A stretch of DNA of 64,000 nt, from the NCBI GenBank assembly GCA_023267215.1, contig JAHFNS010000001.1, forward strand, positions 22,043-86,042, in the 5' to 3' direction. Made by a program: the position numbers and the translations under genes. Positions 1-61,085 of the stretch are shown here, one piece after another (the first letter of the stretch is position 1; each line of letters starts with the position of its first letter). The notes under the pieces are model-generated. The model was not told where the DNA came from. It searched no databases and saw only the letters and a program-made list of their open reading frames with translations. Origin of the DNA: Candidatus Nomurabacteria bacterium (GTDB lineage Bacteria > Patescibacteriota > Minisyncoccia > Phycocordibacterales > UBA9973).

Positions 1-4
1 TATT

Positions 5-1564
5 TTGAAGTCTGAAGGTATTCACACAAGTATAGCCGAGAAATTCAAAGGTGTACCAGAAGATGTTATGTCTTATATGAAAGATCTGTCTATTAAGGCA
101 TCCAGTGAATTTGCAAAAGCTCAAGGTTTAGATAGAGAGTTGCAAAAACTTAAATCTAAACCTGAAGCTGAGGCTTTGTTGGTAAATAAAACTGCAGAAG
201 AAAATTCTGAAGAATTTGGGATTGTTAATTTTAAATCTGATTTTGTGTCCAACAAAAAAGAAGTTTCTTTTGTAATGGCAAAATATTTTGTTAGTAAATA
301 TCATATTAAAACAATTGGTCAAAAAATTCGTGATATTTATATATATGAAAATGGTGTTTATGTATTAGGTCAAAATATAATAACGTCTGAAATTCAATTA
401 ATACTTGAAAAAAATGCTGACAGTAAATGCAAAAACCATATCCTAGAAATGATTAAGGATTTAACCTTAACAAATAGAGAAGATTTTAAGGTGGACAAAA
501 ATTTGATCAACTTAAATAACGGAATCTTGAATATAGAAACTGAAGAATTAATCCCTCATAGTCCAGAATATTTATTTTTTACCAAAATACCCATCAATTA
601 CAATAAAGATGCCCAATGTCCTATAATTCAAAGATTCTTAAATGAAATACTACCAGAAGAGCATGTAAAAATAGTTTTTGAATGGTTTGGGTACTGTCTT
701 TACAGGTCTTATTTTATTAAAAAAGCCATTATATTTGTTGGTGAAAGAGATACTGGAAAATCTACTCTTATAAAATTATTTGTAAGGTTAATTGGTGTTG
801 AAAATACCTCGGTGGTATCTTTACAAAAAATATCTTCTGATAAATTTGCTTCGTCTAATTTATATAATAAACATATAAATGTTTATGATGATCTTGAAGC
901 TAAGGATGTGAATGATAATGGTATGTTTAAAATAGCTACTGGTGATGGAATAATAACTGGTGAAAAAAAGTTTAATGAACAATTTCAATTTCAGAATTAT
1001 GCAAAATTAACTTTTGCTTGTAATAAAATCCCGGAAGTAAAAGATATTAATGATCCAGCATATTTTAGTCGATGGATTATTATACCGTTTACAGCACGAA
1101 TAGAAAAAGTAGATAAATCTCTTAGCGACAAAATTAATACACCAGAAGAATTATCTGGCTTATTAAACATGGCTATTCTTGGTCTATCTGAGATCTTAGC
1201 AAAACAAGATTTTAGTTATAACAAGACGCCAGATGAAATAAAAATAGAAATGTTGCTTTCTGGATCTACAATAGCTAATTTTGCATATGAATGCCTTGAG
1301 GAGGATATTGGTTCATGGGTTAGTAAGGATGATATGTATGAAGAATATTCAAAATATGCTCAATCTAATAACTTACCAGTATTTGATAAAACAATGTTAG
1401 GCAGGAAACTTCCTGATCATAGTGGATATATTATCCATGGAACAAAACTAATAGGCAAAAAACAAGTTCAAGGCTGGAAAAATGTAAAAATTAAAGGAAA
1501 AAAAGAAACTTCTGACCAAGAGGGATATGAGGGTGATTTATCAATGTTTAATACAAATAATTAA
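5..1564 (+). CDS. Phage/plasmid primase, P4-family C-terminal NTPase (D5-like), 5'-truncated by the window edge.
   Basis: Walker A motif VGERDTGKSTL followed by DDLE (Walker B-like). The ORF is open at the window start. Confidence 0.55.
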   Translation: MKSEGIHTSIAEKFKGVPEDVMSYMKDLSIKASSEFAKAQGLDRELQKLKSKPEAEALLVNKTAEENSEEFGIVNFKSDFVSNKKEVSFVMAKYFVSKYHIKTIGQKIRDIYIYENGVYVLGQNIITSEIQLILEKNADSKCKNHILEMIKDLTLTNREDFKVDKNLINLNNGILNIETEELIPHSPEYLFFTKIPINYNKDAQCPIIQRFLNEILPEEHVKIVFEWFGYCLYRSYFIKKAIIFVGERDTGKSTLIKLFVRLIGVENTSVVSLQKISSDKFASSNLYNKHINVYDDLEAKDVNDNGMFKIATGDGIITGEKKFNEQFQFQNYAKLTFACNKIPEVKDINDPAYFSRWIIIPFTARIEKVDKSLSDKINTPEELSGLLNMAILGLSEILAKQDFSYNKTPDEIKIEMLLSGSTIANFAYECLEEDIGSWVSKDDMYEEYSKYAQSNNLPVFDKTMLGRKLPDHSGYIIHGTKLIGKKQVQGWKNVKIKGKKETSDQEGYEGDLSMFNTNN

Positions 1565-7751: not shown

Positions 7752-10175
7752 GTGAGAATAAAAATTTGTATGAAGAATTACGATCATAAAAAAATTGAAA
7801 AGAAAATCCAAAAAGAGTGGGAAAAGAAAAAGATATATTCTGCTTCCGATAAATCTAAAAAGCCAAAATTTTATTCTTTAATCGAATTTCCATATCCATC
7901 TGGTGATGGACTTCACATTGGACATCCTAGACCATATACTGCAATGGATATTATTTCTCGTAAACGTAGAATGGAAGGATTTAACGTCCTTTTTCCTATT
8001 GGTTGGGATGCCTTTGGTCTACCGACTGAAAATTATGCAATAAAAACTGGTAAAAAGCCGGCAGTTGTTACAAAGAAAAATATAATTACATTTACTCGAC
8101 AAATAAAATCACTCGGTATTTCTTTTGATTGGTCTAGGGAAATTAATACAACTGACCCAGCTTATTACAAGTGGACGCAATGGATATTTTTGCAGTTCTA
8201 TAAAAAAGGTTTAGCTTATAAGGCCAAATCTTATATTAACTGGTGTCCAAAGGATAAGATTGGTCTTGCTAATGAAGAAGCGATAGGTGGTGTCTGTGAG
8301 CGTTGTGGAAGTGCTACAGAAAAGCGTGAAAAAGAGCAATGGATGCTTGCTATCACAAAATATGCAGACAGGCTCGATAAAGACTTAGACTTGGTGGATT
8401 ATCCAGAGAGAGTAAAATCACAACAAAGAAATTGGATAGGGAAATCAGAGGGAAGTGAATTGGAATTTAGCTTTTGTCCGTGTGCAAAAGAAAATTTACC
8501 AAATCTAAAAGAAGGAATAAAAGTGTTTACTACTCGTGCAGATACTCTTTTTGGTGTTACGTATGTTGTACTTGCTCCAGAACATGAATTGATTTCAAAA
8601 ATTCAATCAAGAATTACAAATTGGGATGAAGTTGAAAAATATATAAAAGATACAAAGAAAAAATCGGAGATGGAAAGGATGGCAGAAGATAAAACGAAAA
8701 CTGGGGTAGAGCTTAAAGGTGTGAAAGCAATCAATCCTGCTAATAATGAAGAAGTGCCAATTTGGATTGCAGATTATGTCTTAGTAGAATACGGCACAGG
8801 GGCTGTGATGGCAGTGCCAATGCACGACAAAAGGGATAGAGATTTTTCAGAAAAATACAATTTGCCCATCATAGATAGGCCACTTGTTGATGCGAAAGAA
8901 ATTACACAGAAGGTAGGAGGAAAAATTGTTACAAAATTTAAATTACGAGATTGGGTTTTTTCACGTCAGAGATATTGGGGTGAACCTATACCATTAGTCA
9001 ATTGTGAAAAGTGTGGACTCGTACCGATAGGAGAAAAAGATTTGCCAGTAAAGTTGCCGGAAGTAAAAAGTTATACACCGACAGATAATGGAGAATCACC
9101 ACTTGCGGGTATATCAAAATGGGTAAATACAAAATGTCCAAAATGTGGTGGTCCTGCTAAAAGAGAAACAGATACAATGCCAAACTGGGCAGGTAGCTCT
9201 TGGTATTATTTGAGGTATACAGATCCCAAAAATAGTAAAGAATTTGCAAGTAAAAAGAATTTAAAATATTGGACGCCGGTAGATTGGTACAATGGTGGAA
9301 TGGAACACACAACTCTCCACTTACTGTACTCACGTTTTTGGCATAAATTTTTATATGATTTGAAACTTGTGCCGACATCTGAACCTTACAAAAAAAGAAC
9401 TTCTCATGGAATGATATTAGGTGAAGGTGGAGTAAAAATGTCTAAGTCTTTAGGGAATGTTATAAACCCAGATGATATTGTAAAAACATATGGGGCAGAT
9501 ACATTACGTGTTTATGAAATGTTTATAGGTCCATTTGAAGAGGCTGCTCAATGGAGTACTGAGAGTATCATCGGCTCAAGGAGATTTATAGAAAAAGTTT
9601 GGAGGATAGGGGAGAAGATTTCAAAAAAGCTGCTTTCTCACGGCTCGCACTCGAACTTGAATGTGGTTAACGAATCTAATATTGCGTATGCCGAAAAAAG
9701 TTCTGCTTCGCAATCTCCTGTTTTAAAACTTTTACACAAAACAATCAAAAAAGTTTCAGAAGATATTGAAGATATGCGTTTTAATACTGCGATTTCTGCG
9801 ATGATGATACTTGCGACGGAGATGGAAAAAATTAACTTTATTGATTTAGAAGATTATAAAAAATTCTTACAAATTTTAAATCCATTTGCTCCGCACATTG
9901 CAGAATATATTTGGTTTGAGTTAGGGGAGAAGAAAAGTATAAACTTGTCTAGTTGGCCGAAATGGGATGAAAGTTTAATTAAGGATAAGGAAGTAAAAAT
10001 TGCTGTGCAGATAAATGGTAAAGTTAGAACTGAAATAACGATCCAAATGGATGAAAAAGAAGAGGAAGTAAAAAAGAAGGCTTTCGCTAACCAAATTGTT
10101 TTAAAATATATAGGACAACAAGAACCTAAAAAGATAATTTATGTCAAGAATAGAGTTATTAACATATTGAATTAA
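7752..10175 (+). CDS. leuS: Leucyl-tRNA synthetase
   Basis: HIGH-region (PYPSGDGLHIGHP), KMSKS, and C-terminal anticodon-binding region FNTAISAMM. The true start may be the internal Met at ~7770. Confidence 0.9.
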   Translation: MRIKICMKNYDHKKIEKKIQKEWEKKKIYSASDKSKKPKFYSLIEFPYPSGDGLHIGHPRPYTAMDIISRKRRMEGFNVLFPIGWDAFGLPTENYAIKTGKKPAVVTKKNIITFTRQIKSLGISFDWSREINTTDPAYYKWTQWIFLQFYKKGLAYKAKSYINWCPKDKIGLANEEAIGGVCERCGSATEKREKEQWMLAITKYADRLDKDLDLVDYPERVKSQQRNWIGKSEGSELEFSFCPCAKENLPNLKEGIKVFTTRADTLFGVTYVVLAPEHELISKIQSRITNWDEVEKYIKDTKKKSEMERMAEDKTKTGVELKGVKAINPANNEEVPIWIADYVLVEYGTGAVMAVPMHDKRDRDFSEKYNLPIIDRPLVDAKEITQKVGGKIVTKFKLRDWVFSRQRYWGEPIPLVNCEKCGLVPIGEKDLPVKLPEVKSYTPTDNGESPLAGISKWVNTKCPKCGGPAKRETDTMPNWAGSSWYYLRYTDPKNSKEFASKKNLKYWTPVDWYNGGMEHTTLHLLYSRFWHKFLYDLKLVPTSEPYKKRTSHGMILGEGGVKMSKSLGNVINPDDIVKTYGADTLRVYEMFIGPFEEAAQWSTESIIGSRRFIEKVWRIGEKISKKLLSHGSHSNLNVVNESNIAYAEKSSASQSPVLKLLHKTIKKVSEDIEDMRFNTAISAMMILATEMEKINFIDLEDYKKFLQILNPFAPHIAEYIWFELGEKKSINLSSWPKWDESLIKDKEVKIAVQINGKVRTEITIQMDEKEEEVKKKAFANQIVLKYIGQQEPKKIIYVKNRVINILN
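9639..9693 (+). repeat. 55-bp repeat core (about 87% identical to the core at 44895..44949), translated in-frame within leuS
   Basis: CACGGCTCGCACTCGAACTTGAATGTGGTTAACGAATCTAATATTGCGTATGCCG aligned to CACGGCTCGCACTCCAACCTGATAGTGGTTTACGAAATTAATATTGCGTATGCCG. Encodes part of ...SHGSHSNLNVVNESNIAYAEK... in the variable linker of LeuS. Confidence 0.8.
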
Positions 10176-14178: not shown

Positions 14179-16071
14179 ATGGATTTACAATATATACGAA
14201 ATTTCAGCATCATAGCTCATATAGACCATGGTAAGAGCACTTTGGCAGATAGAATGCTTGAAATAACACATACCATAGAGGCTCGTAAAATGCGTGACCA
14301 ATTTTTGGATAATATGGAGCTTGAACGAGAAAGGGGTATAACTATTAAGATGCAACCCGTACGTATGGAATTTACCCCAAATTCCCCGAAGCCCAGCTTA
14401 GGAGAAGTTTCCTTAAGCTGGGCTTCGGGGGAAGGCGAAACTTTTATTTTAAACCTTATAGACACGCCAGGCCACATAGACTTCTCTTATGAAGTATCTC
14501 GTGCCTTAAAGGCCGTAGAAGGCTCTATATTGCTCGTAGATGCAACTCAGGGTGTCCAAGCACAAACATTGACTACTTTAGAAATGGCTCGAGAAAGCGG
14601 GCTTGTTCTCATCCCTGTTTTATCAAAAATAGATTCACCATTAGCTCGAGTAGATGAAATAAAAATGGAAGTGGCAGTTTTGCTTGATATAAATCCTGAT
14701 ACAATTTTAGAAGTATCTGGAAAAACAGGGGAAGGTGTAGAGAATTTATTAGAAGAAATAATAAAAAAAATACCGCCACCTTCTTTGGATGAAAAATTAA
14801 TTCCTGATACTTTGCAAAATGTACGAGGAGAAGAAAGTTGTCGGGCTTTAGTTTTTGACTTTAAATATGATAGTCATAGAGGAGTTATTGTCTATGTTCG
14901 TCTTTTCAACGGTTCAATAAAAAAAGGGGACAATCTTCTTTTTTCTGTTTCGGGAGAAAGATTTATCGCACTAGAAGTCGGAATATTCTCACCAGAAGAG
15001 AATCCAAAAAGTTCAATTGGAATTGGAGAAATAGGTTATATTATAACCGGAATTAAAAAGCCTGGTATTGCTTCTGTCGGAGACACCATCACTTTTAATA
15101 AAAAACCACTACCTGCTTTACCCGGATATATGAATCCAAAACCGGTTGTCTGGGCTTCGGTTTATCCAGAAGATGCAGATGATTTTCCAAATTTAAAACT
15201 TGCTTTAAGTCGTTTAAAACTTTCTGATTCTGCTTTTTCTTACGAAGAAGAATCTTCTGGTACGCTTGGTAAAGGTTTTCGTTGTGGTTTTTTAGGAATG
15301 CTGCATCTTGAAATAATTACAGAACGCTTAAAAAGAGAATTTAATTTAAATTTGGTGGTGACGATGCCTTCTATTACCTATAAAGTAATTTTGAGAAATA
15401 ACAAAGAGTTGATGATATATTCTCCTCATTTTTTTCCAGATGATAGTCAAATCATAAAAGTTTATGAACCCTGGGTGTCAGTCAAAGTTATTACTCCACA
15501 AATGTATACCAGTGTATTAATGCCTTTTCTTTTTGACCATGAAGCAGAAGTACATATGACTGATAGCTTTGGAGACAACCGTTCAGTAATAAATCTAGAT
15601 ATGCCCTTGCGTGAATTAATGCGTAATTTTTTCGATGATTTAAAAAGTATTACTTCTGGTTATGCCTCCATTTCTTACGAAATTGGTAAATATAGAGATG
15701 CAGATGTTGTTCGATTAGATATCTTAGTGGCGGATGAATCTATGCCAGCTTTCTGTAGAGTTGTCTCAAGACGTAGGGTAGAAGAAGAAGCCCACAACCA
15801 AGTTGAAAAATTAAAAAAAATTATTCCACGACAACAATTTCCTTTTAAAATACAAGGTAAAGCATTAGGAAGAATTATTGCCTCCGAATCTGTCTCTGCT
15901 TTTCGAAAAGATGTTTTGATGCATGGTAGTAAAGTTGTTGGTGGAGGAGATGTTAGTCGAAAAAAGAAACTTCTAGAAAAGCAAAAAAGAGGAAAAGCTA
16001 GAATGAAAGAAAACGCAAAAGTAAACATTACTCAAGATGTTTTTCTAAAAATGATGCGTAGAGGGGAATAG
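14179..16071 (+). CDS. lepA: Elongation factor 4 (LepA)
   Basis: NFSIIAHIDHGKSTLADR, DTPGHIDF, and the LepA-specific C-terminal domain. Contains an in-frame 47-bp palindrome insertion at 14384..14430. Confidence 0.9.
   Translation: MDLQYIRNFSIIAHIDHGKSTLADRMLEITHTIEARKMRDQFLDNMELERERGITIKMQPVRMEFTPNSPKPSLGEVSLSWASGEGETFILNLIDTPGHIDFSYEVSRALKAVEGSILLVDATQGVQAQTLTTLEMARESGLVLIPVLSKIDSPLARVDEIKMEVAVLLDINPDTILEVSGKTGEGVENLLEEIIKKIPPPSLDEKLIPDTLQNVRGEESCRALVFDFKYDSHRGVIVYVRLFNGSIKKGDNLLFSVSGERFIALEVGIFSPEENPKSSIGIGEIGYIITGIKKPGIASVGDTITFNKKPLPALPGYMNPKPVVWASVYPEDADDFPNLKLALSRLKLSDSAFSYEEESSGTLGKGFRCGFLGMLHLEIITERLKREFNLNLVVTMPSITYKVILRNNKELMIYSPHFFPDDSQIIKVYEPWVSVKVITPQMYTSVLMPFLFDHEAEVHMTDSFGDNRSVINLDMPLRELMRNFFDDLKSITSGYASISYEIGKYRDADVVRLDILVADESMPAFCRVVSRRRVEEEAHNQVEKLKKIIPRQQFPFKIQGKALGRIIASESVSAFRKDVLMHGSKVVGGGDVSRKKKLLEKQKRGKARMKENAKVNITQDVFLKMMRRGE
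14384..14430 (+). repeat. 47-bp perfect-arm palindrome inside lepA (in-frame)
   Basis: CCCCGAAGCCCAGCTTA - 13-nt centre (GGAGAAGTTTCCT) - TAAGCTGGGCTTCGGGG. Confidence 0.9.
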
Positions 16072-17539: not shown

Positions 17540-18856
17540 ATGGAATTACACAGTATCAAAAATTTTAATGAGCTTGCAACGACAGAAAATCGTAAAATAG
17601 CACTAGAGATAATTGAAGCTGGTATGGATGCCATAAATACAGAAAAGGTGATAAAATCATCAGTCATTTTGAAGAGTGATGTTTTGTCGATAGGAGATAA
17701 AGATTTTGATTTATCAAAATATAAAAATATAAAAGTCATAGGTTTCGGCAAATCTTCACCTGATGCAGCTCTAGTGCTAGAAGATGTACTGGGGTCCAAG
17801 ATTACGAAAGGAGCTGTCGTCGGCCTTAAAAAAGTTCCGTGTAGATATATAGAGACATTCATTGGTACACATCCCAGACCTTCGAGAGAGAACATAGAAG
17901 CCGGGAATAAAATATTTGAATTATTGGATGGATCCACTGCTCAGGATTTGATCATTGTTTTAGTTTCTGGTGGAGGTTCAGCATTGCTTTGCTATGGGGA
18001 GGGTGAATGCACAGAAGGTGCGAAGCTATATGATAACTTTTTATCTCTCGGTAAGACTATATCTGAAATGAATACAGTTAGAAAACATCTGTCTCTTTTC
18101 AAAGGAGGAGGATTGGCAAAAATAGCGTATCCAGCCACGGTCATAGGACTTATTTTTTCTGATGTTCCAGGGGGCGATTTTGCTAGTGTGGCTTCTGGTC
18201 CGACTTACAAAGATGAAACGAGTATAAAAGATGCTCAAAAGATAATAATAGAAAATAATTTAGGAAATTTTGATCTGATTGAAACACCTAAAGAAGATAA
18301 ATATTTTGAAAATGTTTTTAACTTTGTAGTTGTGTCGAATGAAATCGCAATAAACAAAATGGTAGAGAAAGCAAAGGAATTTAATTTTGAAACAAATATC
18401 GTTTCGACTGAATTATACGATGAGACGAACATAGCGCTTGATAAAATATTCCAAACGATGCCCCAAAGACGGTCTTCGGGGAATTCCCCGAAGACCGTCT
18501 TTGGGGTGGGTTCTGTTGTTCTAGCTGCTGGAGAGCCAAGTATTACTGTGACAAAAAGCGGGGGAAAGGGAGGGAGAAATTTACACATGGGACTTTTGTC
18601 TATAGAGAAAAATTTAATAGACGATGATTCAGTATTTATATCTTTTGCATCTGATGGTATGGACAATAGTGATGCAGCTGGGACAGTAGTCGATAAAAAT
18701 ACAGTGGAGAAAATAAATAAATTAGGTATAAATGTAAAAGATGCACTAGAAAATTTTGATTCGTATCCAGTATTTGAAAAGTCAGGCGATATCATAATGA
18801 CAGGTCCCACCGGAGCAAACGTGTCAGACTTGATGTTGCTTTTAAAGAGAAAATAA
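17540..18856 (+). CDS. Glycerate 2-kinase (MOFRL family)
   Basis: LVSGGGSALL and the overall MOFRL layout. Contains an in-frame 46-bp perfect palindrome at 18461..18506. Confidence 0.7.
   Translation: MELHSIKNFNELATTENRKIALEIIEAGMDAINTEKVIKSSVILKSDVLSIGDKDFDLSKYKNIKVIGFGKSSPDAALVLEDVLGSKITKGAVVGLKKVPCRYIETFIGTHPRPSRENIEAGNKIFELLDGSTAQDLIIVLVSGGGSALLCYGEGECTEGAKLYDNFLSLGKTISEMNTVRKHLSLFKGGGLAKIAYPATVIGLIFSDVPGGDFASVASGPTYKDETSIKDAQKIIIENNLGNFDLIETPKEDKYFENVFNFVVVSNEIAINKMVEKAKEFNFETNIVSTELYDETNIALDKIFQTMPQRRSSGNSPKTVFGVGSVVLAAGEPSITVTKSGGKGGRNLHMGLLSIEKNLIDDDSVFISFASDGMDNSDAAGTVVDKNTVEKINKLGINVKDALENFDSYPVFEKSGDIIMTGPTGANVSDLMLLLKRK
18461..18506 (+). repeat. 46-bp perfect palindrome inside the glycerate kinase gene (in-frame)
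   Basis: CCCCAAAGACGGTCTTCGGGG-AATT-CCCCGAAGACCGTCTTTGGGG. Confidence 0.9.
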
Positions 18857-27586: not shown

Positions 27587-27692
27587 ATTCTTATTAAAAC
27601 TATTATAATTTAACATAAAAAAGTCAAATTTGAAAACTTGTCCCGCCTAGCTTAGGCGGGGTGAATTGGCTTTTTAGTGAAGCTATGATAAA

Positions 27693-27979: not shown

Positions 27980-28051
27980 GCCTAGGTAGCTCAGTAGTAG
28001 AGCGTTCCCCTGAAGAGGGACAGGTCGGGTGTGCGATCCACCCCCTAGGCA
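27980..28051 (+). tRNA. tRNA-Phe (anticodon GAA) with an unusual T-loop (G at position 55)
   Basis: Perfect acceptor (GCCTAGG/CCTAGGC), D stem (GCTC/GAGC) and T stem (GGGTG/CACCC). Anticodon loop CTGAAGA. T-loop TGCGATC instead of TTCGAWT. Confidence 0.6.
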
Positions 28052-28053
28052 CA
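28016..28053 (+). repeat. Direct repeat copy 1 (38 bp; 3' half of tRNA-Phe from the anticodon stem to the discriminator)
   Basis: AGGGACAGGTCGGGTGTGCGATCCACCCCCTAGGCACA is identical to 28412..28449. Confidence 0.9.
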
Positions 28054-28107
28054 TGAAAAATAAAATAAACTTAACTCAACTAAAGAAATATAATTAGATA
28101 TAATTAT

Positions 28108-28410
28108 ATGTCTTGTTATGTTTATATGATAAAAAGCATAAAAGATAACAGTTATTATGTTGGTATTTCAGAAGATCCTATTAGGAGATTGAAGGAACAT
28201 AATAGCGGTAAATTAAAAAGAACAGCTAAAAATAAACCACATAAGATTGTATTTATAAAAGAACACTTAGATTATAAAAAGGCGAGAATACACGAGATTT
28301 GGCTTAAGAAGAAAAATAAAGAATATAAGGACAAAGTGGCTGATTTCGATGCGAAAAATAAAAATTATGTAGAGCATTCCCCCTTGCCCCGCCCATTACG
28401 GGCGGGGTGA
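28108..28410 (+). CDS. GIY-YIG nuclease family protein (YhbQ/UPF0213-like)
   Basis: CYVYMIKSIKDNSYYVGISEDPIRRLKEHNSG parallels E. coli YhbQ [31 protein letters not shown]: GIY...YIG spacing and conserved Arg/Glu/Asn. Confidence 0.8.
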   Translation: MSCYVYMIKSIKDNSYYVGISEDPIRRLKEHNSGKLKRTAKNKPHKIVFIKEHLDYKKARIHEIWLKKKNKEYKDKVADFDAKNKNYVEHSPLPRPLRAG

Positions 28411-28411
28411 A

Positions 28412-28449
28412 AGGGACAGGTCGGGTGTGCGATCCACCCCCTAGGCACA
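28412..28449 (+). repeat. Direct repeat copy 2 (displaced duplicate of the tRNA-Phe 3' half)
   Basis: Exact 38/38 match to 28016..28053. Preceded by the hairpin CCCGCCCATTACGGGCGGG. Confidence 0.9.
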
Positions 28450-44617: not shown

Positions 44618-44845
44618 TTATTTTATTTTACCGAGTTTGCGAAGTTTTTCTATTTCTTTTCTTCGTCCTAATCTTTTTAGAGTACCTTTTTTAACCGTGA
44701 GTTTTGATTCTTTTCTTTTGTTATATCGAGAACCTTTTACTTTTTGAATTATATTTGATTCTTGAATTTTACGAGAAAAACGACGCAAGATACTTGCATT
44801 ATTTTCGTTTGCGTTTTTATTTACCTCAATTACTGTTTTTGCCAT
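44618..44845 (-). CDS. rpsU: 30S ribosomal protein S21-like
   Basis: ILRRFSRKIQESNIIQKV parallels S21 ALRRFKRSCEKAGVLSEV, followed by a basic tail. Start trimmed to MAKTVIEV. Confidence 0.5.
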   Translation of the reverse strand: MAKTVIEVNKNANENNASILRRFSRKIQESNIIQKVKGSRYNKRKESKLTVKKGTLKRLGRRKEIEKLRKLGKIK

Positions 44846-44870
44846 ATATTGTAAGATATCATAGTTTTTT

Positions 44871-44976
44871 AAAAAATGCAAAATAATACTTTTTCACGGC
44901 TCGCACTCCAACCTGATAGTGGTTTACGAAATTAATATTGCGTATGCCGAAAAAAGTATTATTTTGCATTTTTTAC
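44871..44976. repeat. ~106-bp inverted-repeat element (23-bp AT-rich arms, 55-bp GC-richer core) in the rpsU upstream region
   Basis: AAAATGCAAAATAATACTTTTT-core-AAAAAGTATTATTTTGCATTTT with perfect rc arms. The core CACGGCTCGCAC...GCGTATGCCG is also present in leuS at 9639..9693. Confidence 0.8.
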
Positions 44977-45011
44977 TAGACTTTTTTGCAAAAAAAAGCT
45001 AAGATTATTAT

Positions 45012-45479
45012 ATGAAACAAGCTGGTAATTATATAACTGAAGAAAAAAGAAAAGCCTTAGAAGTTGAATTAGAAGATTTAAAAGGACCTAAAAGAAAAGA
45101 AATTTTAGACGCTTTAGCTTATGCGAAGTCATTAGGTGATCTTTCTGAAAATGCAGAATATCATCAAGCCAGAGAAGATCAAGGCAAGCTTGAAGAACGT
45201 ATTTCAAGAATTGAACAAGTGCTGGGATCATCAGAAGTTGTTTCTGGGGGCGGTGGAGATGTTATCGAGATTGGTTCCAAGGTAGTAGTTATAAAAAATG
45301 GAGAGAAAGAAGAAAAGACTTATCAAATAGTTGGTTCTGAAGAATCAGATATGTCTCAAGGGAAAATTTCTAACAGATCTCCTTTTGGCGAAGCACTCTT
45401 TGGAAAAAAGAAAGGTGATGACGTTTCTTTTAAAACTCCAAACGGAGAAGTAAATTATAAAATAATAAATGTATCTTAA
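45012..45479 (+). CDS. greA: Transcription elongation factor GreA
   Basis: N-terminal coiled coil with SENAEYHQAREDQGKLEERI and a C-terminal FKBP-like domain. Confidence 0.85.
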   Translation: MKQAGNYITEEKRKALEVELEDLKGPKRKEILDALAYAKSLGDLSENAEYHQAREDQGKLEERISRIEQVLGSSEVVSGGGGDVIEIGSKVVVIKNGEKEEKTYQIVGSEESDMSQGKISNRSPFGEALFGKKKGDDVSFKTPNGEVNYKIINVS

Positions 45480-47341: not shown

Positions 47342-47697
47342 TTTAACCTCGATTTGTGAAAGAAATTATTTTATATAATTTAACATTATTGTAACAAATA
47401 AGTCAAGTTTGAAGTTATTAATAAAGAGGAAAAAAAGGGGGAGCAAAAAACGGAAGCTAAAATAATTTAGCTCCCGTTAACCTAACCAGAGGGATTCCAA
47501 AGATCCAGATAGATAAGTTTAACTGTTCATTTTTTGAACAGTATGTTTCTCTATGCCAGCGTCACCCAGATACATCCCGTATCTTTAAGGGTTTAGACAT
47601 AAGGAAATGTGTTTTCTAAAAAACGAAACGAACACTTTCTTGATTAATACAATAAATTATATATAAAATAAGTCAAATTTTGACCATTAATACTTAT

Positions 47698-47829
47698 CTC
47701 CCACACCTATAATACTGTCATTCTGCTTTTTCAATAAGAACACCTAAGATATCATGGTTTTTAGTATAAAAAATATTACTTTTTAATTTTTTAGCAGAAC
47801 AAAAAGTAACAGTATTATAGGTGTGGGAG
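47698..47829. repeat. 132-bp MITE-like element with 20-bp perfect terminal inverted repeats flanked by TTAT direct repeats
   Basis: Left end CTCCCACACCTATAATACTG; right end CAGTATTATAGGTGTGGGAG (exact reverse complement). TTAT immediately outside both ends. Subterminal TCATTCTGC/GCAGAA. Confidence 0.65.
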
Positions 47830-47854
47830 TTATCCACAGATAGGGTTTTGCGTT

Positions 47855-47900
47855 GTGGGGGATAGTGGTTTACAATATATATCAAGTGGGAAAAGGTGGG
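47855..47900 (+). promoter_or_regulatory. Candidate MraZ operator: GTGGG direct repeats upstream of mraZ
   Basis: GTGGG at 47855, 47886 and 47896. The last two are spaced 10 bp apart (AAGTGGGAAAAGGTGGGAAA). A TATAAAAT -10-like box follows at ~47924. Confidence 0.5.
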
Positions 47901-47938
47901 AAATTTTAAAGAGCGTAAGCGACTATAAAATTTCACCA

Positions 47939-47992
47939 CCCCGTTAAATAATTTTTGCAAAGCAAAAATTGCCCAAAGGGCATTTAACGGGG
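47939..47992 (+). ncRNA. Structured leader element upstream of mraZ (11-bp outer stem enclosing two hairpins)
   Basis: CCCCGTTAAAT [ATTTTTGC-AAA-GCAAAAAT] [GCCC-AAA-GGGC] ATTTAACGGGG, 40 bp upstream of the mraZ start. Confidence 0.4.
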
Positions 47993-48032
47993 TAATGATT
48001 TTTATGTTCGCTTTGCTCACTAAAAATCAATT

Positions 48033-48476: not shown

Positions 48477-49392
48477 GATGGCAAAAGAAAGTGTACACAA
48501 GACAGTTCTTTTAAATGAAACAATAGAAGGTTTAGAACTCTCCCGAAGCCTGGCTTCAGAAAAGATTGTTTTAGATTGTACTTTTGGAGGAGGAGGACAT
48601 AGTTTAGAAATTTTAGAAAGATATCCAAAAGTAAAAGTGATTGCTTTAGATCAAGATAAAAGTGCTTGGGAAAAAGCAAAGAATAAATTCAAAGGACGAG
48701 AAAAAAGAATTTCTTTTGTGAATAATAATTTCAGGGATATAGATGAAGCTTTACAAAAGGAAGGAGTAGAAAAAGTAGACGGTATTATTTTTGACTTAGG
48801 TTTGAGTTCGGATCAGTTGGAGAATTCCGGACGAGGATTTTCTTTTATGAAAGATGAGCCATTACAGATGACCATGAAAGAAAATCCTCTGCCAGAAGAT
48901 TTGACGGCAGAAGACATAGTAAACGGCTGGAGCGAAAAAAGTTTAGCCGACATTATCTATGGATATGGTGAAGAAAGGTTTAGTCGAAAAATAGCGAAGG
49001 GGATAGTGGAAAGTAGAAAAAAAGAAAAAATAGAGAGGACAGGTCAGTTGGTGAAGATTATAGGAGAAAATGTTCCGAGTGCATACAGGAAAGGGAGATT
49101 GCACTTTGCTACAAAAACCTTTCAGGCATTAAGAATCGCAGTAAATGATGAATTAGGGTCATTACAGCAAGGATTAGGAAAAGGGTTGGAAGCCCTAAAG
49201 AAAGGAGGTAGGATGTCAGTCATTTCATTTCATAGCTTGGAAGACAGAATAGTAAAAAGATTTTATAAAGAAAAAGAAAAGGAAGAAAAAGTAATTTTAA
49301 TAAATAAAAAACCGATAATAGCGAAAGAAGAAGAAATAAAAAATAACCCGAGATCAAGAAGTGCAAAGTTAAGAATTTTGGAGAAAAAATAA
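48463..49392 (+). CDS. rsmH: 16S rRNA (cytosine1402-N4)-methyltransferase RsmH
   Basis: HKTVLLNE, DCTFGGGGHS, DLGLSSDQL, FHSLEDRIVK. Confidence 0.9.
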   Translation: MRIYKMAKESVHKTVLLNETIEGLELSRSLASEKIVLDCTFGGGGHSLEILERYPKVKVIALDQDKSAWEKAKNKFKGREKRISFVNNNFRDIDEALQKEGVEKVDGIIFDLGLSSDQLENSGRGFSFMKDEPLQMTMKENPLPEDLTAEDIVNGWSEKSLADIIYGYGEERFSRKIAKGIVESRKKEKIERTGQLVKIIGENVPSAYRKGRLHFATKTFQALRIAVNDELGSLQQGLGKGLEALKKGGRMSVISFHSLEDRIVKRFYKEKEKEEKVILINKKPIIAKEEEIKNNPRSRSAKLRILEKK

Positions 49393-60053: not shown

Positions 60054-61085
60054 ATGGCTTTTATAGATGAATTAAAAATATATGGGGAAGCGGGAACCGG
60101 TGGAAACGGCGTTGTTCGTTGGCGACAGGAAAAATTTGTGCCAAAGGGTGGGCCTGCAGGGGGCGACGGTGGCCGTGGTGGCGATTTTTATGCGAGAGCA
60201 GTGCGCGATGTGCACGTACTTTCTAAATACAAAGCAAAGAAAAGTTTCTATGCTGAAAAAGGCGAGGACGGCGGGAACAAAAGTCTGCATGGTAAAAAAG
60301 GGGAAGATTTCTTTTTAGAATTGCCTATCGGTTCCATCATTACAAACTTAGATACAGATGAAAAATGGCAGCTTTTAGAAGAAGGGCAAGAAGTTTTGCT
60401 TTTGAAGGGTGGCTATGGTGGATTTGGTAATGAACACTTCAAGAGTTCGACGAATACTAGCCCGAAAGAATGGCGTCCTGGAGAAACAGGTGAACGCGGT
60501 AATTTTCATATTGAGCTTGAACTTTTTGCAGACATAGGGCTTGTGGGGCTTCCAAATGCTGGTAAGTCATCATTATTGAACGCAGTAACGAATGCTGATG
60601 CAAAAGTGGGGGATTATGCTTTTACGACACTAGACCCCAACCTAGGAGACTTTTACGGCTATACAATAGCAGACATTCCAGGACTCATAGAAGGAGCAAA
60701 TACTGGCAAAGGTCTCGGTGTGAAATTTTTACGACATATCAAACGTACAAAAATGATCGCGCATTTGGTGTCATTTGAAAATTTGTCCAAAGGTTCAACA
60801 GGTATGATGAAAGTTTATAAAGAAATAAGAAAAGAACTCGAAAAATATGATAAAAATTTAGGCTTAGGAGACGAAGGACTTTCTCAAAAAGAAGAAATAA
60901 TAATTCTTACGAAAGCTGACACAGCAGAAGATCAAAAAATTATTGATAAAAAAGTGACAGAGTTTAAAAAATTAAAAAAGCTTGCCCCGGCCAGCAAAGG
61001 CGGGGTATTTGTGCTTTCTTTGTATGACGATAAATCTGTGAAGAAATTCAAAGACGAATTAGTGAAAATTTTAAGTAAAAAATAA
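60054..61085 (+). CDS. obgE: GTPase Obg
   Basis: Gly-rich Obg fold (GGNGVVRWRQEKFVPKGGPAGGDGGRGGD) and G-domain ADIGLVGLPNAGKSSLLNAVT. Confidence 0.9.
   Translation: MAFIDELKIYGEAGTGGNGVVRWRQEKFVPKGGPAGGDGGRGGDFYARAVRDVHVLSKYKAKKSFYAEKGEDGGNKSLHGKKGEDFFLELPIGSIITNLDTDEKWQLLEEGQEVLLLKGGYGGFGNEHFKSSTNTSPKEWRPGETGERGNFHIELELFADIGLVGLPNAGKSSLLNAVTNADAKVGDYAFTTLDPNLGDFYGYTIADIPGLIEGANTGKGLGVKFLRHIKRTKMIAHLVSFENLSKGSTGMMKVYKEIRKELEKYDKNLGLGDEGLSQKEEIIILTKADTAEDQKIIDKKVTEFKKLKKLAPASKGGVFVLSLYDDKSVKKFKDELVKILSKK

What the first reader, a model, noticed from the sequence alone, without database searches (positions are those of the whole stretch)
9639..9693. leuS carries an in-frame copy of a 55-bp repeat core also present in an intergenic inverted-repeat element
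CACGGCTCGCACTCGAACTTGAATGTGGTTAACGAATCTAATATTGCGTATGCCG lies in the LeuS linker after KMSKS, where it is translated as ...SHGSHSNLNVVNESNIAYAEK.... It matches 48 of 55 positions of the core of the element at 44871..44976 upstream of rpsU. In leuS it is flanked by A6G-CTGCTT-like direct repeats rather than the perfect inverted arms. It is a third essential gene hosting a family member, and LeuS tolerates it in its known variable region.
Basis: seen in the sequence. Interest (0 to 1): 0.75.

Follow-up and report, generated by a model that had tools for sequence, protein, structure and literature searches.

The report
In-frame hairpin repeat inside leuS
The leucyl-tRNA synthetase gene of this tiny candidate-phyla bacterium carries, translated in frame, a copy of a small hairpin-forming repeat that is scattered through related genomes, between genes and inside other housekeeping genes, much like the 'selfish' palindromic elements known from Rickettsia.

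Summary
Window 9639-9693, in frame in leuS, matches 44895-44949 at 48/55, and at 61/69 over 9633-9701. The best chance match is 33/55. These are the only two copies in the window.

It is a dispersed, non-autonomous hairpin repeat of Nomurabacteria/Paceibacterota. A scan of species-representative genomes found 26 more copies, 7 of them on one 598-kb contig. Copies lie between genes and inside LeuS (two sites), MnmA (two sites), MurI and Tgt. Every genic copy is in the same orientation and frame (..LFHGSHSNLNVVNESNIAYAEKS..).

The 55-nt core with its CT5/A6G clamp is nearly invariant, and the constraint acts on the nucleotides. The outer 12-25-nt arms differ at each site, yet they pair in nearly every copy.

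Filled and empty mnmA alleles define an 81-nt insertion at the centre of an A-run/T-run palindrome, with no direct duplication. The same loops carry at least 8 unrelated hairpin-insert families in other genomes.

In this window's leuS the left arm has decayed. The other in-frame palindromes in the window (lepA, rsmH, obg) belong to a different, GC-rich family.

Closest known: Rickettsia palindromic elements. I found no report of this in these bacteria. How it moves is unknown.

The parts
7770..10175 (+). leuS (leucine--tRNA ligase, 801 aa), the host gene
   Evidence: ORF. It is 100% identical to P0001, and its orthologues are annotated LeuS and carry tRNA-synt_1 / Anticodon_1 Pfam domains.
9621..9638 (+). 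Degenerate left arm of the leuS copy (TCAAAAAAGCTGCTTTCT). It no longer pairs with the right arm and is read as SKKLLS.
   Evidence: Compared with the intact left arms of orthologous copies, ACGAAGCAGCAACTTTTT and similar. The window copy has no significant fold.
9639..9693 (+). 55-nt conserved core, in frame (HGSHSNLNVVNESNIAY A)
   Evidence: It differs at only 1 of the 38 unconstrained positions from the family consensus.
9694..9716 (+). A6G clamp plus the conserved right arm (AAAAAAGTTCTGCTTCGCAATCT), read as EKSSASQS
   Evidence: Identical or nearly identical in L001 and L010.
44870..44894 (+). Left arm of the intergenic copy (25 nt, perfectly complementary to 44951-44975)
44895..44949 (+). 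55-nt core of the intergenic copy
44950..44975 (+). A6G clamp plus the right arm of the intergenic copy, ending in a T-run
44621..44845 (-). rpsU (ribosomal protein S21). Its start codon lies about 25 nt from the hairpin.
   Evidence: Translation. Orthologues in L034-L036 are 77-91% identical.
45012..45479 (+). greA. Its promoter-like TAGACT-17-TAAGAT (44977-45005) starts right after the hairpin.
   Evidence: Pfam GreA_GreB. The flank aligns with the empty-site relatives L034 and L035.

Best explanation
This is a member of a family of small, non-autonomous, hairpin-forming repeats that have spread through Nomurabacteria/Paceibacterota genomes. They behave like Rickettsia palindromic elements. 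The copied unit is about 69-86 nt: a 55-nt core (CACGGCTCGCAC...GCGTATGCCG) with a CT5/A6G clamp and short imperfect inverted arms. The core forms an imperfect stem itself. Copies sit at the tip of a longer stem whose outer 12-25 bp differ from site to site. In the one site where junctions can be read, the unit lies at the centre of a native A-run/T-run palindrome, and there is no direct target duplication. Only one sense reading frame of the element is open. Copies inside genes therefore survive only in frame 0 and only in tolerant loops, where they add about 27-35 residues. Intergenic copies mostly lie at gene ends, and there the hairpin with its flanking A and T runs resembles a bidirectional terminator. 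The core is held constant at the nucleotide level and is homogenised among copies within a genome. The outer stem is kept palindromic by a DNA-level process; the most likely candidate is template switching between the arms during replication. The leuS copy in this window is an old insertion shared with related species, and its left arm has since decayed. Shown here: family membership, dispersal, fixed frame and orientation, nucleotide-level conservation, arm covariation and one empty/filled junction. Inferred: the mobility itself, its enzyme, apex targeting as a general rule, and template switching as the cause of arm covariation.
For: Dispersal: the genome scan returned 26 copies in 23 loci from about 15 MAGs, including 7 on one 598-kb contig and 3 in another genome. 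There are further diverged copies.
Frame and orientation: every genic copy, at six sites in LeuS, MnmA, MurI and Tgt, is in the same orientation and frame.
No partner gene: the intergenic copies share no neighbouring gene.
Conservation: within the leuS insert, third-codon-position identity to orthologues is 84-93%, against 57-61% for the rest of the gene. Differences in the core fall 44/19/26 on codon positions 1/2/3, with 36 nonsynonymous and 16 synonymous codon changes. Intergenic copies are comparably conserved, at 1-8 differences from the consensus against 1-7 for genic copies.
Homogenisation: identical cores occur at leuS, mnmA and an intergenic site of one genome, while orthologous sites differ by 3-8 nt.
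Arms: 90.5% of cells pair, against 41-54% in slid controls. Eighteen of 33 pairs change on both sides, 0 of 500 shuffles reach the observed values, and G-U pairs are rare, about 1% of cells by my count from the per-pair table.
Junction: empty mnmA alleles (L028-L030) against filled L023 give an 81-nt insert between ..CAAAAYAAAAA and TTTGC...
The rpsU-greA spacer is empty in L034 and L035. In L036 it holds a diverged variant in which the CGGC/GCCG stem has become GCAAC/GTTGC.
At least 8 unrelated insert families, and nested composites, occupy the same LeuS and MnmA loops.
Solved LeuS structures are 10-18 residues shorter exactly at this position.
Against: No transposase or autonomous partner was found, and no polymorphic (fresh) insertion was observed. 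Mobility is therefore inferred from distribution alone.
The 'empty' alleles are themselves short palindromes. They could be remnants left after loss of an element and not virgin targets.
The core is more conserved than simple selfish-DNA decay predicts, even in the window's leuS copy whose arm has decayed. That leaves room for an in-situ function.
The genome sample was drawn with an exact pattern over 24 core positions, so conservation of those positions rests only on the copies found through protein homology (L001-L003, L020, L030, L036).
Confidence: 0.8

Rival explanations
1. The core is a host-useful structured nucleic-acid motif kept by purifying selection wherever it lies, including inside ORFs. 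Candidates include a protein-binding DNA hairpin, or an RNA hairpin that sets mRNA stability, processing or termination. Its spread would then be secondary.
For: Conservation is at the nucleotide level and is independent of codon position. Compensatory changes occur in the outer stem and, in diverged variants, in the inner CGGC/GCCG stem: GCAAC/GTTGC in L036 and CGAC/GTCG in L006. Orientation relative to transcription and to GC skew is fixed; 28 of 32 copies listed lie on the G-rich strand. The core stays intact in the window's leuS copy even though the arm has decayed.
Against: G-U pairs are almost absent, which points to a DNA palindrome and away from an RNA helix under selection. Copies have no fixed position relative to genes: they lie inside ORFs, between convergent genes, and between divergent promoters. 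Nothing in Rfam matches. The sites are also filled by unrelated hairpin families in sister genomes, and some are empty. No specific motif is therefore required at those sites.
Confidence: 0.15
2. The element moves as single-stranded DNA through a Y1/HUH transposase, in the manner of REP/RAYT or IS200/IS605 PATE elements. Such an enzyme would recognise the imperfect core hairpin. This is a specific version of the mobility step.
For: The core is an imperfect hairpin with conserved bulges. No direct target duplication is seen. Strand orientation follows a replichore-like pattern on the 598-kb contig: + at 80 kb, - at 235-397 kb, + at 501-563 kb. It also follows GC skew. A Y1_Tnp gene lies next to leuS in L003 and L004.
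Against: That Y1_Tnp gene is flanked by unrelated TTGAACA repeats and is absent from the window and all other loci. The element has inverted ends and a single hairpin, not two different subterminal hairpins. No conserved target tetranucleotide is evident. It lacks the GTAG/CGTC tag and the 20-40-nt size of REPs.
Confidence: 0.12
3. The insert is a functional peptide module, selected as protein, that has been shuffled between enzymes.
For: The frame is always the same, and a recognisable peptide (L)FHGSHSNL...AYAEKS appears in four enzymes, three of which bind tRNA.
Against: Codon changes are mostly nonsynonymous (36 against 16) and are not concentrated at third positions. Untranslated intergenic copies are comparably conserved. 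The same loops accept unrelated peptides or none. The fixed frame is explained by stop codons in the other two sense frames.
Confidence: 0.04
4. The similarity is chance in AT-rich DNA, or an assembly chimera.
For: None found.
Against: The match is 48/55 against a chance maximum of 33/55, with blastn E 4.5e-16. The same insert is at the same leuS site in five independent assemblies.
Confidence: 0.01

Closest known systems
Rickettsia palindromic elements (RPE-1 to RPE-10; Ogata et al. 2000, as described in PMC1779305 and the review PMC10969869)
   Same: Both are short interspersed palindromic repeats found in intergenic DNA and inside unrelated housekeeping ORFs. Both are inserted in frame and read through, so they add a conserved peptide in tolerated regions. 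Neither encodes a transposase. Both occur as several families in small, reduced genomes. An aminoacyl-tRNA synthetase is a host in both: PheT carries RPE-7 in Rickettsia.
   Different: The phylum is unrelated (Paceibacterota, CPR), and sequence relatedness to RPEs could not be tested. This element is shorter, with a unit of about 69-86 nt against 100-150 bp. Here the centre is the conserved part, and the outer arms are specific to each site and covary. The same few loops are occupied by many unrelated families and by nested composites. Cores are homogenised within a genome.
Bacterial MITEs found inside genes (ERIC/RU-1/2/3 in enterobacteria, PMC2759123; Correia/NEMIS in Neisseria, from my own knowledge)
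   Same: Both are small, non-autonomous, hairpin-forming repeats that carry an open frame and are sometimes fused in frame to host genes. Some act as terminators or processing sites when transcribed.
   Different: MITEs have conserved terminal inverted repeats and a direct target duplication, such as TA for Correia elements, and they derive from a recognisable IS. Here only the inner 8-13 nt of the arms are conserved. No direct duplication is seen at the one readable junction, and no parent IS was found.
REP/BIME elements with RAYT transposases, and insertion sequences that target palindrome loops (IS1397, IS621/IS110 family; from my own knowledge)
   Same: Both involve imperfect hairpins as the recognised unit, a strand bias, and a link between insertion and pre-existing palindromes.
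   Different: REPs are 20-40 nt, GC-rich, extragenic and tagged by GTAG/CGTC. This element fits none of those. The only RAYT-like gene seen, in L003, is linked to other repeats.
Translational-bypass inserts ('byps') in Magnusiomyces mitochondrial genes (from my own knowledge)
   Same: Both are families of short mobile inserts that populate essential coding sequences.
   Different: Byps interrupt the frame and are skipped by the ribosome. These inserts keep the frame open in every genic copy, so read-through is the simple reading.

Membership tests
Rickettsia palindromic elements (as a kind) | Multi-copy interspersed repeat present both in intergenic DNA and inside protein-coding genes | tested here: met
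   The genome scan gave 26 copies in 23 loci, and leuS-orthologue loci gave more. Eight copies are intergenic and the rest lie in LeuS, MnmA, MurI and Tgt.
Rickettsia palindromic elements (as a kind) | Palindromic, able to form a hairpin | tested here: met
   All but two or three copies adopt the same long-stem fold; the window's leuS copy and the diverged L020 copy do not. Across the alignment 90.5% of cells pair, against 41-54% in slid controls. The window's leuS copy has lost the lower stem.
Rickettsia palindromic elements (as a kind) | Genic copies are in frame, translated in one fixed frame, and give a conserved peptide | tested here: met
   Every genic copy found by the pattern, plus the diverged in-gene variants in L020 and L030, is in sense frame 0 with no stop. 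Translation itself was not observed.
Rickettsia palindromic elements (as a kind) | Sequence relatedness to RPE-1..10 consensus sequences, in a Rickettsiales host | not tested
The host is Paceibacterota according to the LeuS and MnmA hits and the record titles. It is therefore filed as the same kind, not the same family.
MITE | Conserved terminal inverted repeats | tested here: inconclusive
   The inner arms (G)CWGCTTTTT / AAAAAAGCWC are conserved, and subfamilies share 13-16 nt, for example GCAGNNGC or AAAATAATAC. The outer arms differ at every site.
MITE | Direct target-site duplication | tested here: not met
   Filled L023 against empty L028/L029 at mnmA site 1 shows an 81-nt insert with no flanking direct repeat. 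Only one junction could be read, and the empties may be secondary.
MITE | A cognate autonomous IS with the same ends | tested here: not met
   No homologous gene lies next to any of the intergenic copies. Viral contigs hold nothing. Whole genomes were not searched.
REP / RAYT | 20-40-nt GC-rich extragenic palindrome with a GTAG/CGTC tag and an associated Y1 transposase | tested here: not met
   The core is 55 nt, AT-rich, often intragenic and has no such tag. The Y1_Tnp gene in L003 has unrelated flanking repeats and is absent elsewhere.
Known structured RNA (Rfam) | Match to a curated covariance model at its gathering score | tested here: not met
   The only hits are generic long-hairpin miRNA models far below threshold. 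The whole-window scan shows tRNAs only.
Intrinsic terminator (intergenic copies only) | Stable hairpin followed by a T-run at the 3' end of a gene | tested here: inconclusive
   Four of the 8 intergenic copies lie between convergent gene ends and two more follow a stop codon. All have an A-run and a T-run outside the stem. The window copy, however, lies between divergent promoters. The scan tool does not score loops this long.

The most novel reading that the evidence does not exclude
Paceibacterota may harbour a previously undescribed class of hairpin elements that insert at the apex of existing palindromes. That class would comprise this family and at least 8 others sharing the same hot spots. 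On this reading the elements build and maintain their own stem inside essential coding sequence, by templated inverted copying of the upstream flank. The right arm would follow synonymous variants of native upstream codons. The elements would be kept uniform by gene conversion, or by an unknown enzyme that reads the conserved imperfect core. This process would be a major source of the loop insertions typical of CPR proteins.
Probability: 0.25. Interest if true: 0.8.

Novelty: new variant of a known kind. Interest (0 to 1): 0.62.

Why it matters
CPR/Patescibacteria have tiny genomes (about 0.6 Mb) that were thought to be poor in mobile DNA, and their proteins are known for unexplained insertions. 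These results show that specific surface loops of essential enzymes (LeuS, MnmA, MurI, Tgt) are nearly saturated with short hairpin repeats read through as peptide. Long linkers occur in 99 of 118 LeuS and 104 of 108 MnmA relatives, although both sets were gathered with insert-bearing queries.

This provides a second, independent case of the Rickettsia 'selfish DNA in ORFs' phenomenon in another reduced-genome lineage. It also gives a concrete source for lineage-specific protein insertions.

It offers a natural system in which a DNA palindrome and a coding sequence co-evolve. Practically, these repeats can mislead alignment, phylogeny and binning of CPR genomes, and they could serve as strain markers.

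Tried and rejected
Rfam at gathering and at permissive thresholds gave nothing meaningful.

Viral contigs scanned with either end of the core gave one GC-rich chance hit (L031) and nothing else.

A peptide query to list host proteins failed three times. A 58-aa double peptide returned only 3 tiny ORFs. The exhaustive representative search with the 32-aa window peptide returned one 71-aa ORF.

AlphaFold of LeuS from a 9-sequence alignment gave pLDDT 44 and was discarded. Sequence alignment to solved LeuS structures was used instead.

The Y1_Tnp gene next to leuS in L003 was followed up as a possible mobilising enzyme and rejected, because it has unrelated repeats and is absent elsewhere.

The idea that the variable arms are simple direct duplications of the target was rejected. 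They are inverted, and at mnmA site 1 the outer stem is native flank.

The idea that every arm is fully target-derived was also rejected. Two sites in one leuS gene share the same 16-nt arm (L010), and non-orthologous intergenic copies share AAAATAATAC.

No orthologue of the rpsU-greA spacer was among the first loci. DNA for the empty-site LeuS P0032 could not be fetched.
Full report
**1. The observation**

It lies in frame in a 2.4-kb ORF. That ORF is 100% identical to a database LeuS (P0001, 801 aa), and its relatives are annotated leucine--tRNA ligase of Candidatus Nomurabacteria/Paceibacterota. The local translation is ..RIGEKISKKLLSHGSHSNLNVVNESNIAYAEKSSASQSPVLKLLHKTIKK...

The ungapped match to 44895-44949 is 48/55, as claimed. 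It extends to 61/69 over 9633-9701 versus 44889-44957 (blastn E 4.5e-16). Shuffled 55-mers reach at most 33/55 anywhere in the window.

The second copy is the tip of a hairpin with perfect 25-nt arms, lying between rpsU (minus strand, start codon at 44845) and greA (plus strand, 45012). BLAST and an nhmmer profile with filters off find no third copy in the window.

**2. A dispersed family**

One scan of species-representative genomes with CACGGCTCGCAC-N(25-50)-TGCCGAAAAAAG returned 26 copies in 23 loci from about 15 Paceibacterota/Nomurabacteria MAGs. Two of these MAGs are labelled Saccharibacteria and one Burkholderiales, presumably through mis-binning or mislabelling. Seven copies lie on a single 598-kb contig and three in another genome.

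In every hit the matched stretch is exactly 62 nt. It is preceded by (G)CTTTTT, or CTTTCT in two copies. Diverged variants turn up in the same loci.

Eight copies are intergenic. The others lie in LeuS at two sites: the linker after KMSKS, and the start of the editing domain (EFKI^IKVFTTRAD). The rest are in MnmA at two sites, in glutamate racemase MurI and in tRNA-guanine transglycosylase Tgt.

All genic copies have the same orientation and the same frame (CAC GGC TCG CAC = HGSH). The other two sense frames contain stops. One antisense frame is open but is never used.

No homologous gene is shared by the neighbourhoods of the intergenic copies, so the element is non-autonomous. Four of the eight intergenic copies sit between convergent gene ends, and two more sit just after a stop codon. 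All have an A-run before the stem and a T-run after it.

**3. Which parts are conserved**

The centre is conserved and the ends are not, which is the reverse of a classical MITE.

- Within leuS, identity between the window and three orthologues (77% nucleotide identity overall) is 83-90% in the insert.
- At third codon positions it is 84-93% in the insert, against 57-61% in the rest of the gene.
- Across 25 variant-A copies, differences from the consensus fall 44/19/26 on codon positions 1/2/3, with 36 nonsynonymous and 16 synonymous codon changes.
- Untranslated intergenic copies are comparably conserved, at 1-8 differences from the consensus against 1-7 for genic copies.

The constraint therefore acts on the nucleotide sequence and not on the peptide.

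Cores do not cluster by site. The leuS, mnmA and one intergenic copy of contig JBAZKU01 are identical to each other and to the murI copy of another genome. Orthologous leuS copies differ by 3-8 nt. This indicates homogenisation within genomes or repeated re-seeding.

The apical 20-25 nt exist in several variants: A, a B variant specific to mnmA site 1, C in L020 and L030, and others in L006 and L036. In the most diverged variants the inner CGGC/GCCG stem changes in a compensated way, to GCAAC/GTTGC in L036 and CGAC/GTCG in L006.

**4. The arms**

All but two or three copies fold into the same shape, a lower stem of about 25 bp with one unpaired base, then the imperfect core stem. The window's leuS copy and the diverged L020 copy do not. 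The outer 12-25 nt of the stem differ from site to site.

On the gap-free alignment of 31 distinct copies:

- 90.5% of cells pair, against 41-54% when partners are slid.
- 18 of 33 pairs show changes on both sides (137 cells).
- No shuffle out of 500 reaches the observed values.
- G-U pairs are rare, about 1% of cells by my count from the per-pair table.

The rarity of G-U pairs suggests a DNA palindrome and not an RNA helix held by selection.

Orthologous copies show coordinated changes inside coding sequence. At mnmA site 1 the pairs are AAC-ACA/TGT-GTT, AAT-ATA/TAT-ATT and AAC-ATA/TAT-GTT. At mnmA site 2 the native codons for Ser-Gln-Asn (TCA CAA AAT, TCA CAG AAT, TCA CAG AAC) lie inside the stem. 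The right arm reads ATTTTGT, ATTCTGT and GTTCTGT respectively.

**5. Junctions**

MnmA relatives include three alleles with a short site 1, HYAQNKNFCLIKGID.

- Empty L028 reads GCGCAAAACAAAAA|TTTTTGCTTGATTAAAGG.
- Filled L023 reads GCGCAAAATAAAAA + GCAGATGCTTTTT[core]AAAAAAGCACTGC + TTTGCATTTAGCGAAAGG.

The inserted block is 81 nt (27 codons, matching the 46-residue against 19-residue spacing). It has 13-nt imperfect inverted ends and sits at the centre of a native A-run/T-run palindrome. The outermost stem is therefore flank, and no direct duplication is visible. One caveat applies: the short alleles are themselves palindromic (CAAAAATTTTTG; CTAAAAACTTTTTAG) and might be scars of earlier elements.

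At leuS site 2 the short allele L033 also has a palindromic centre, AAGAATTCTT.

For the intergenic copy, the rpsU-greA spacer of relatives L034 and L035 lacks the element altogether. L036 carries a diverged variant at the same point, with the same left flank but a right arm shorter by 11 nt. That pattern fits a right arm that is copied from the left flank and can grow.

Not every arm is flank-derived, however. The two leuS sites of L010 share the same 16-nt arm, and non-orthologous intergenic copies share AAAATAATAC. A short arm therefore travels with the core.

**6. Hot spots**

In 118 LeuS relatives the KMSKS-to-FNTAI distance ranges from 88 to 132 residues. Ninety-nine have the long form and 14 carry this family. 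The others carry at least 8 unrelated families, for example:

- KNSSGLTLPGVPGGTHTVQNSS
- NFSGPRFSGAPSPGQTVQNSS
- SFAGSLSPRARGALPLGSSACETPRQ
- SSNFSSLRPSPEYRGGTLGKLKIERS
- KNFGAFALGDIRQGTHDAKNLS

Most of these families recur at the two MnmA sites and some at LeuS site 1, and nested composites exist. MnmA site 1 is filled in 104 of 108 relatives. Both protein sets were gathered with insert-bearing queries, so these fractions are upper estimates.

Solved LeuS structures are 10-18 residues shorter exactly at the insert, which is consistent with a tolerant surface linker. My AlphaFold model was too poor to use.

**7. The window's leuS copy**

Its core differs at only 1 of the 38 unconstrained positions from the family consensus. 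Its right arm is the conserved AAAAAAGTTCTGCTTCGCAATCT.

Its left arm, TCAAAAAAGCTGCTTTCT, differs at 7 of 18 positions from the ACGAAGCAGCAACTTTTT of relatives, by my own count. This copy has no significant fold.

It is not a target duplication.

**8. Interpretation and comparison**

The best-supported reading is a non-autonomous palindromic repeat of the kind first described in Rickettsia. RPEs are 100-150 bp, occur in intergenic and coding DNA, are fused in frame, and include a copy in PheT (PMC1779305; PMC10969869). Intragenic ERIC/RU elements are a second parallel (PMC2759123).

This element differs from those in five ways:

- its host lineage;
- its smaller unit;
- a conserved centre with site-specific, covarying arms;
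- saturation of a few shared loops by many families;
- concerted evolution of the core.

It fails two MITE criteria, the direct duplication and a parent IS, and it fails the REP/RAYT criteria. Five full-text searches found no description of such elements in CPR/Patescibacteria.

The way it moves is unknown. Apex-of-palindrome targeting and template-switch maintenance of the arms are inferences. A host function for the conserved core cannot be excluded.

Noticed in passing
window 14384-14430 (lepA), 18461-18506 (DUF4147/MOFRL glycerate-kinase-like gene), 48537-48568 (rsmH), 60981-61009 (obg), 27637-27665 (intergenic): There are GC-rich perfect or near-perfect palindromes in a 32% GC genome. Four of them are in frame inside conserved genes, for example lepA ..NSPKPSLGEVSLSWASGE.. 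and a 46-nt perfect palindrome read as MPQRRSSGNSPKTVFGVG. They form two small families, AATTCCCCGAAG.. and CTTGCCCCGCC..GGCGGGGTGAA. The lepA peptide NSPKPS recurs at MnmA site 1 in other genomes (P0163, P0227), so they seem to be the same class of element as the finding.
   Followed up: partly
window 27980-28449: tRNA-Phe (27980-28052) is followed by a 100-aa GIY-YIG nuclease ORF (28108-28410). After that comes a 38-nt exact duplicate of the tRNA's 3' half (28412-28449 = 28016-28053), preceded by a GC-rich hairpin at 28383-28411. It looks like a small GIY-YIG cassette integrated in or next to the tRNA gene.
   Followed up: partly
window 47342-48032: This is a 690-bp stretch with no convincing gene. 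It holds a hairpin with 24-nt arms (47695-47718 / 47809-47832, 96% complementary, 90 nt between them), a second hairpin at 47928-48003 and a perfect DnaA-box nonamer TTATCCACA at 47830-47838. It has no Rfam match. It could be an unrecognised RNA gene or an origin-like region, although the GC skew does not flip here.
   Followed up: partly
LeuS orthologues P0003, P0008, P0088 etc. (L002 3251-6160); P0045, P0076, P0095, P0099: Many LeuS relatives in this clade are 950-1150 aa. They carry a whole NUDIX domain inserted after ..KYNL(P/K)I/V in the catalytic body. Others carry PF04480/PF18741 endonuclease-like domains. LeuS is evidently a hot spot for large insertions as well.
   Followed up: no
L003 3743-4760 (and L004): A RAYT-like Y1 transposase gene lies immediately downstream of leuS. 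It is flanked by arrays of TTGAACA/TGTTCAA repeats unrelated to the element studied.
   Followed up: yes
window 8469-8516 (leuS, start of editing domain): The second LeuS hot spot is not empty in this window. It reads ..EFSFCPCAKENLPNLKEGIKVFTT.., against EFKIKNSEEKIKVFTT in short alleles, and it contains a small hairpin TTTTGTCCGTGTGCAAAA. It may be a remnant of another insert.
   Followed up: no
L001 10700-10830 (leuS of a relative): This is a composite insert at LeuS site 1. A GC-rich SSNFSSLRPSPDYGVGTLGKLKIERSS element is followed directly by the 3' third of the element studied (..TGCGTATGCCGAAAAAAGTTCTG, read as AYAEKSS). It is evidence for nesting or replacement between families.
   Followed up: partly
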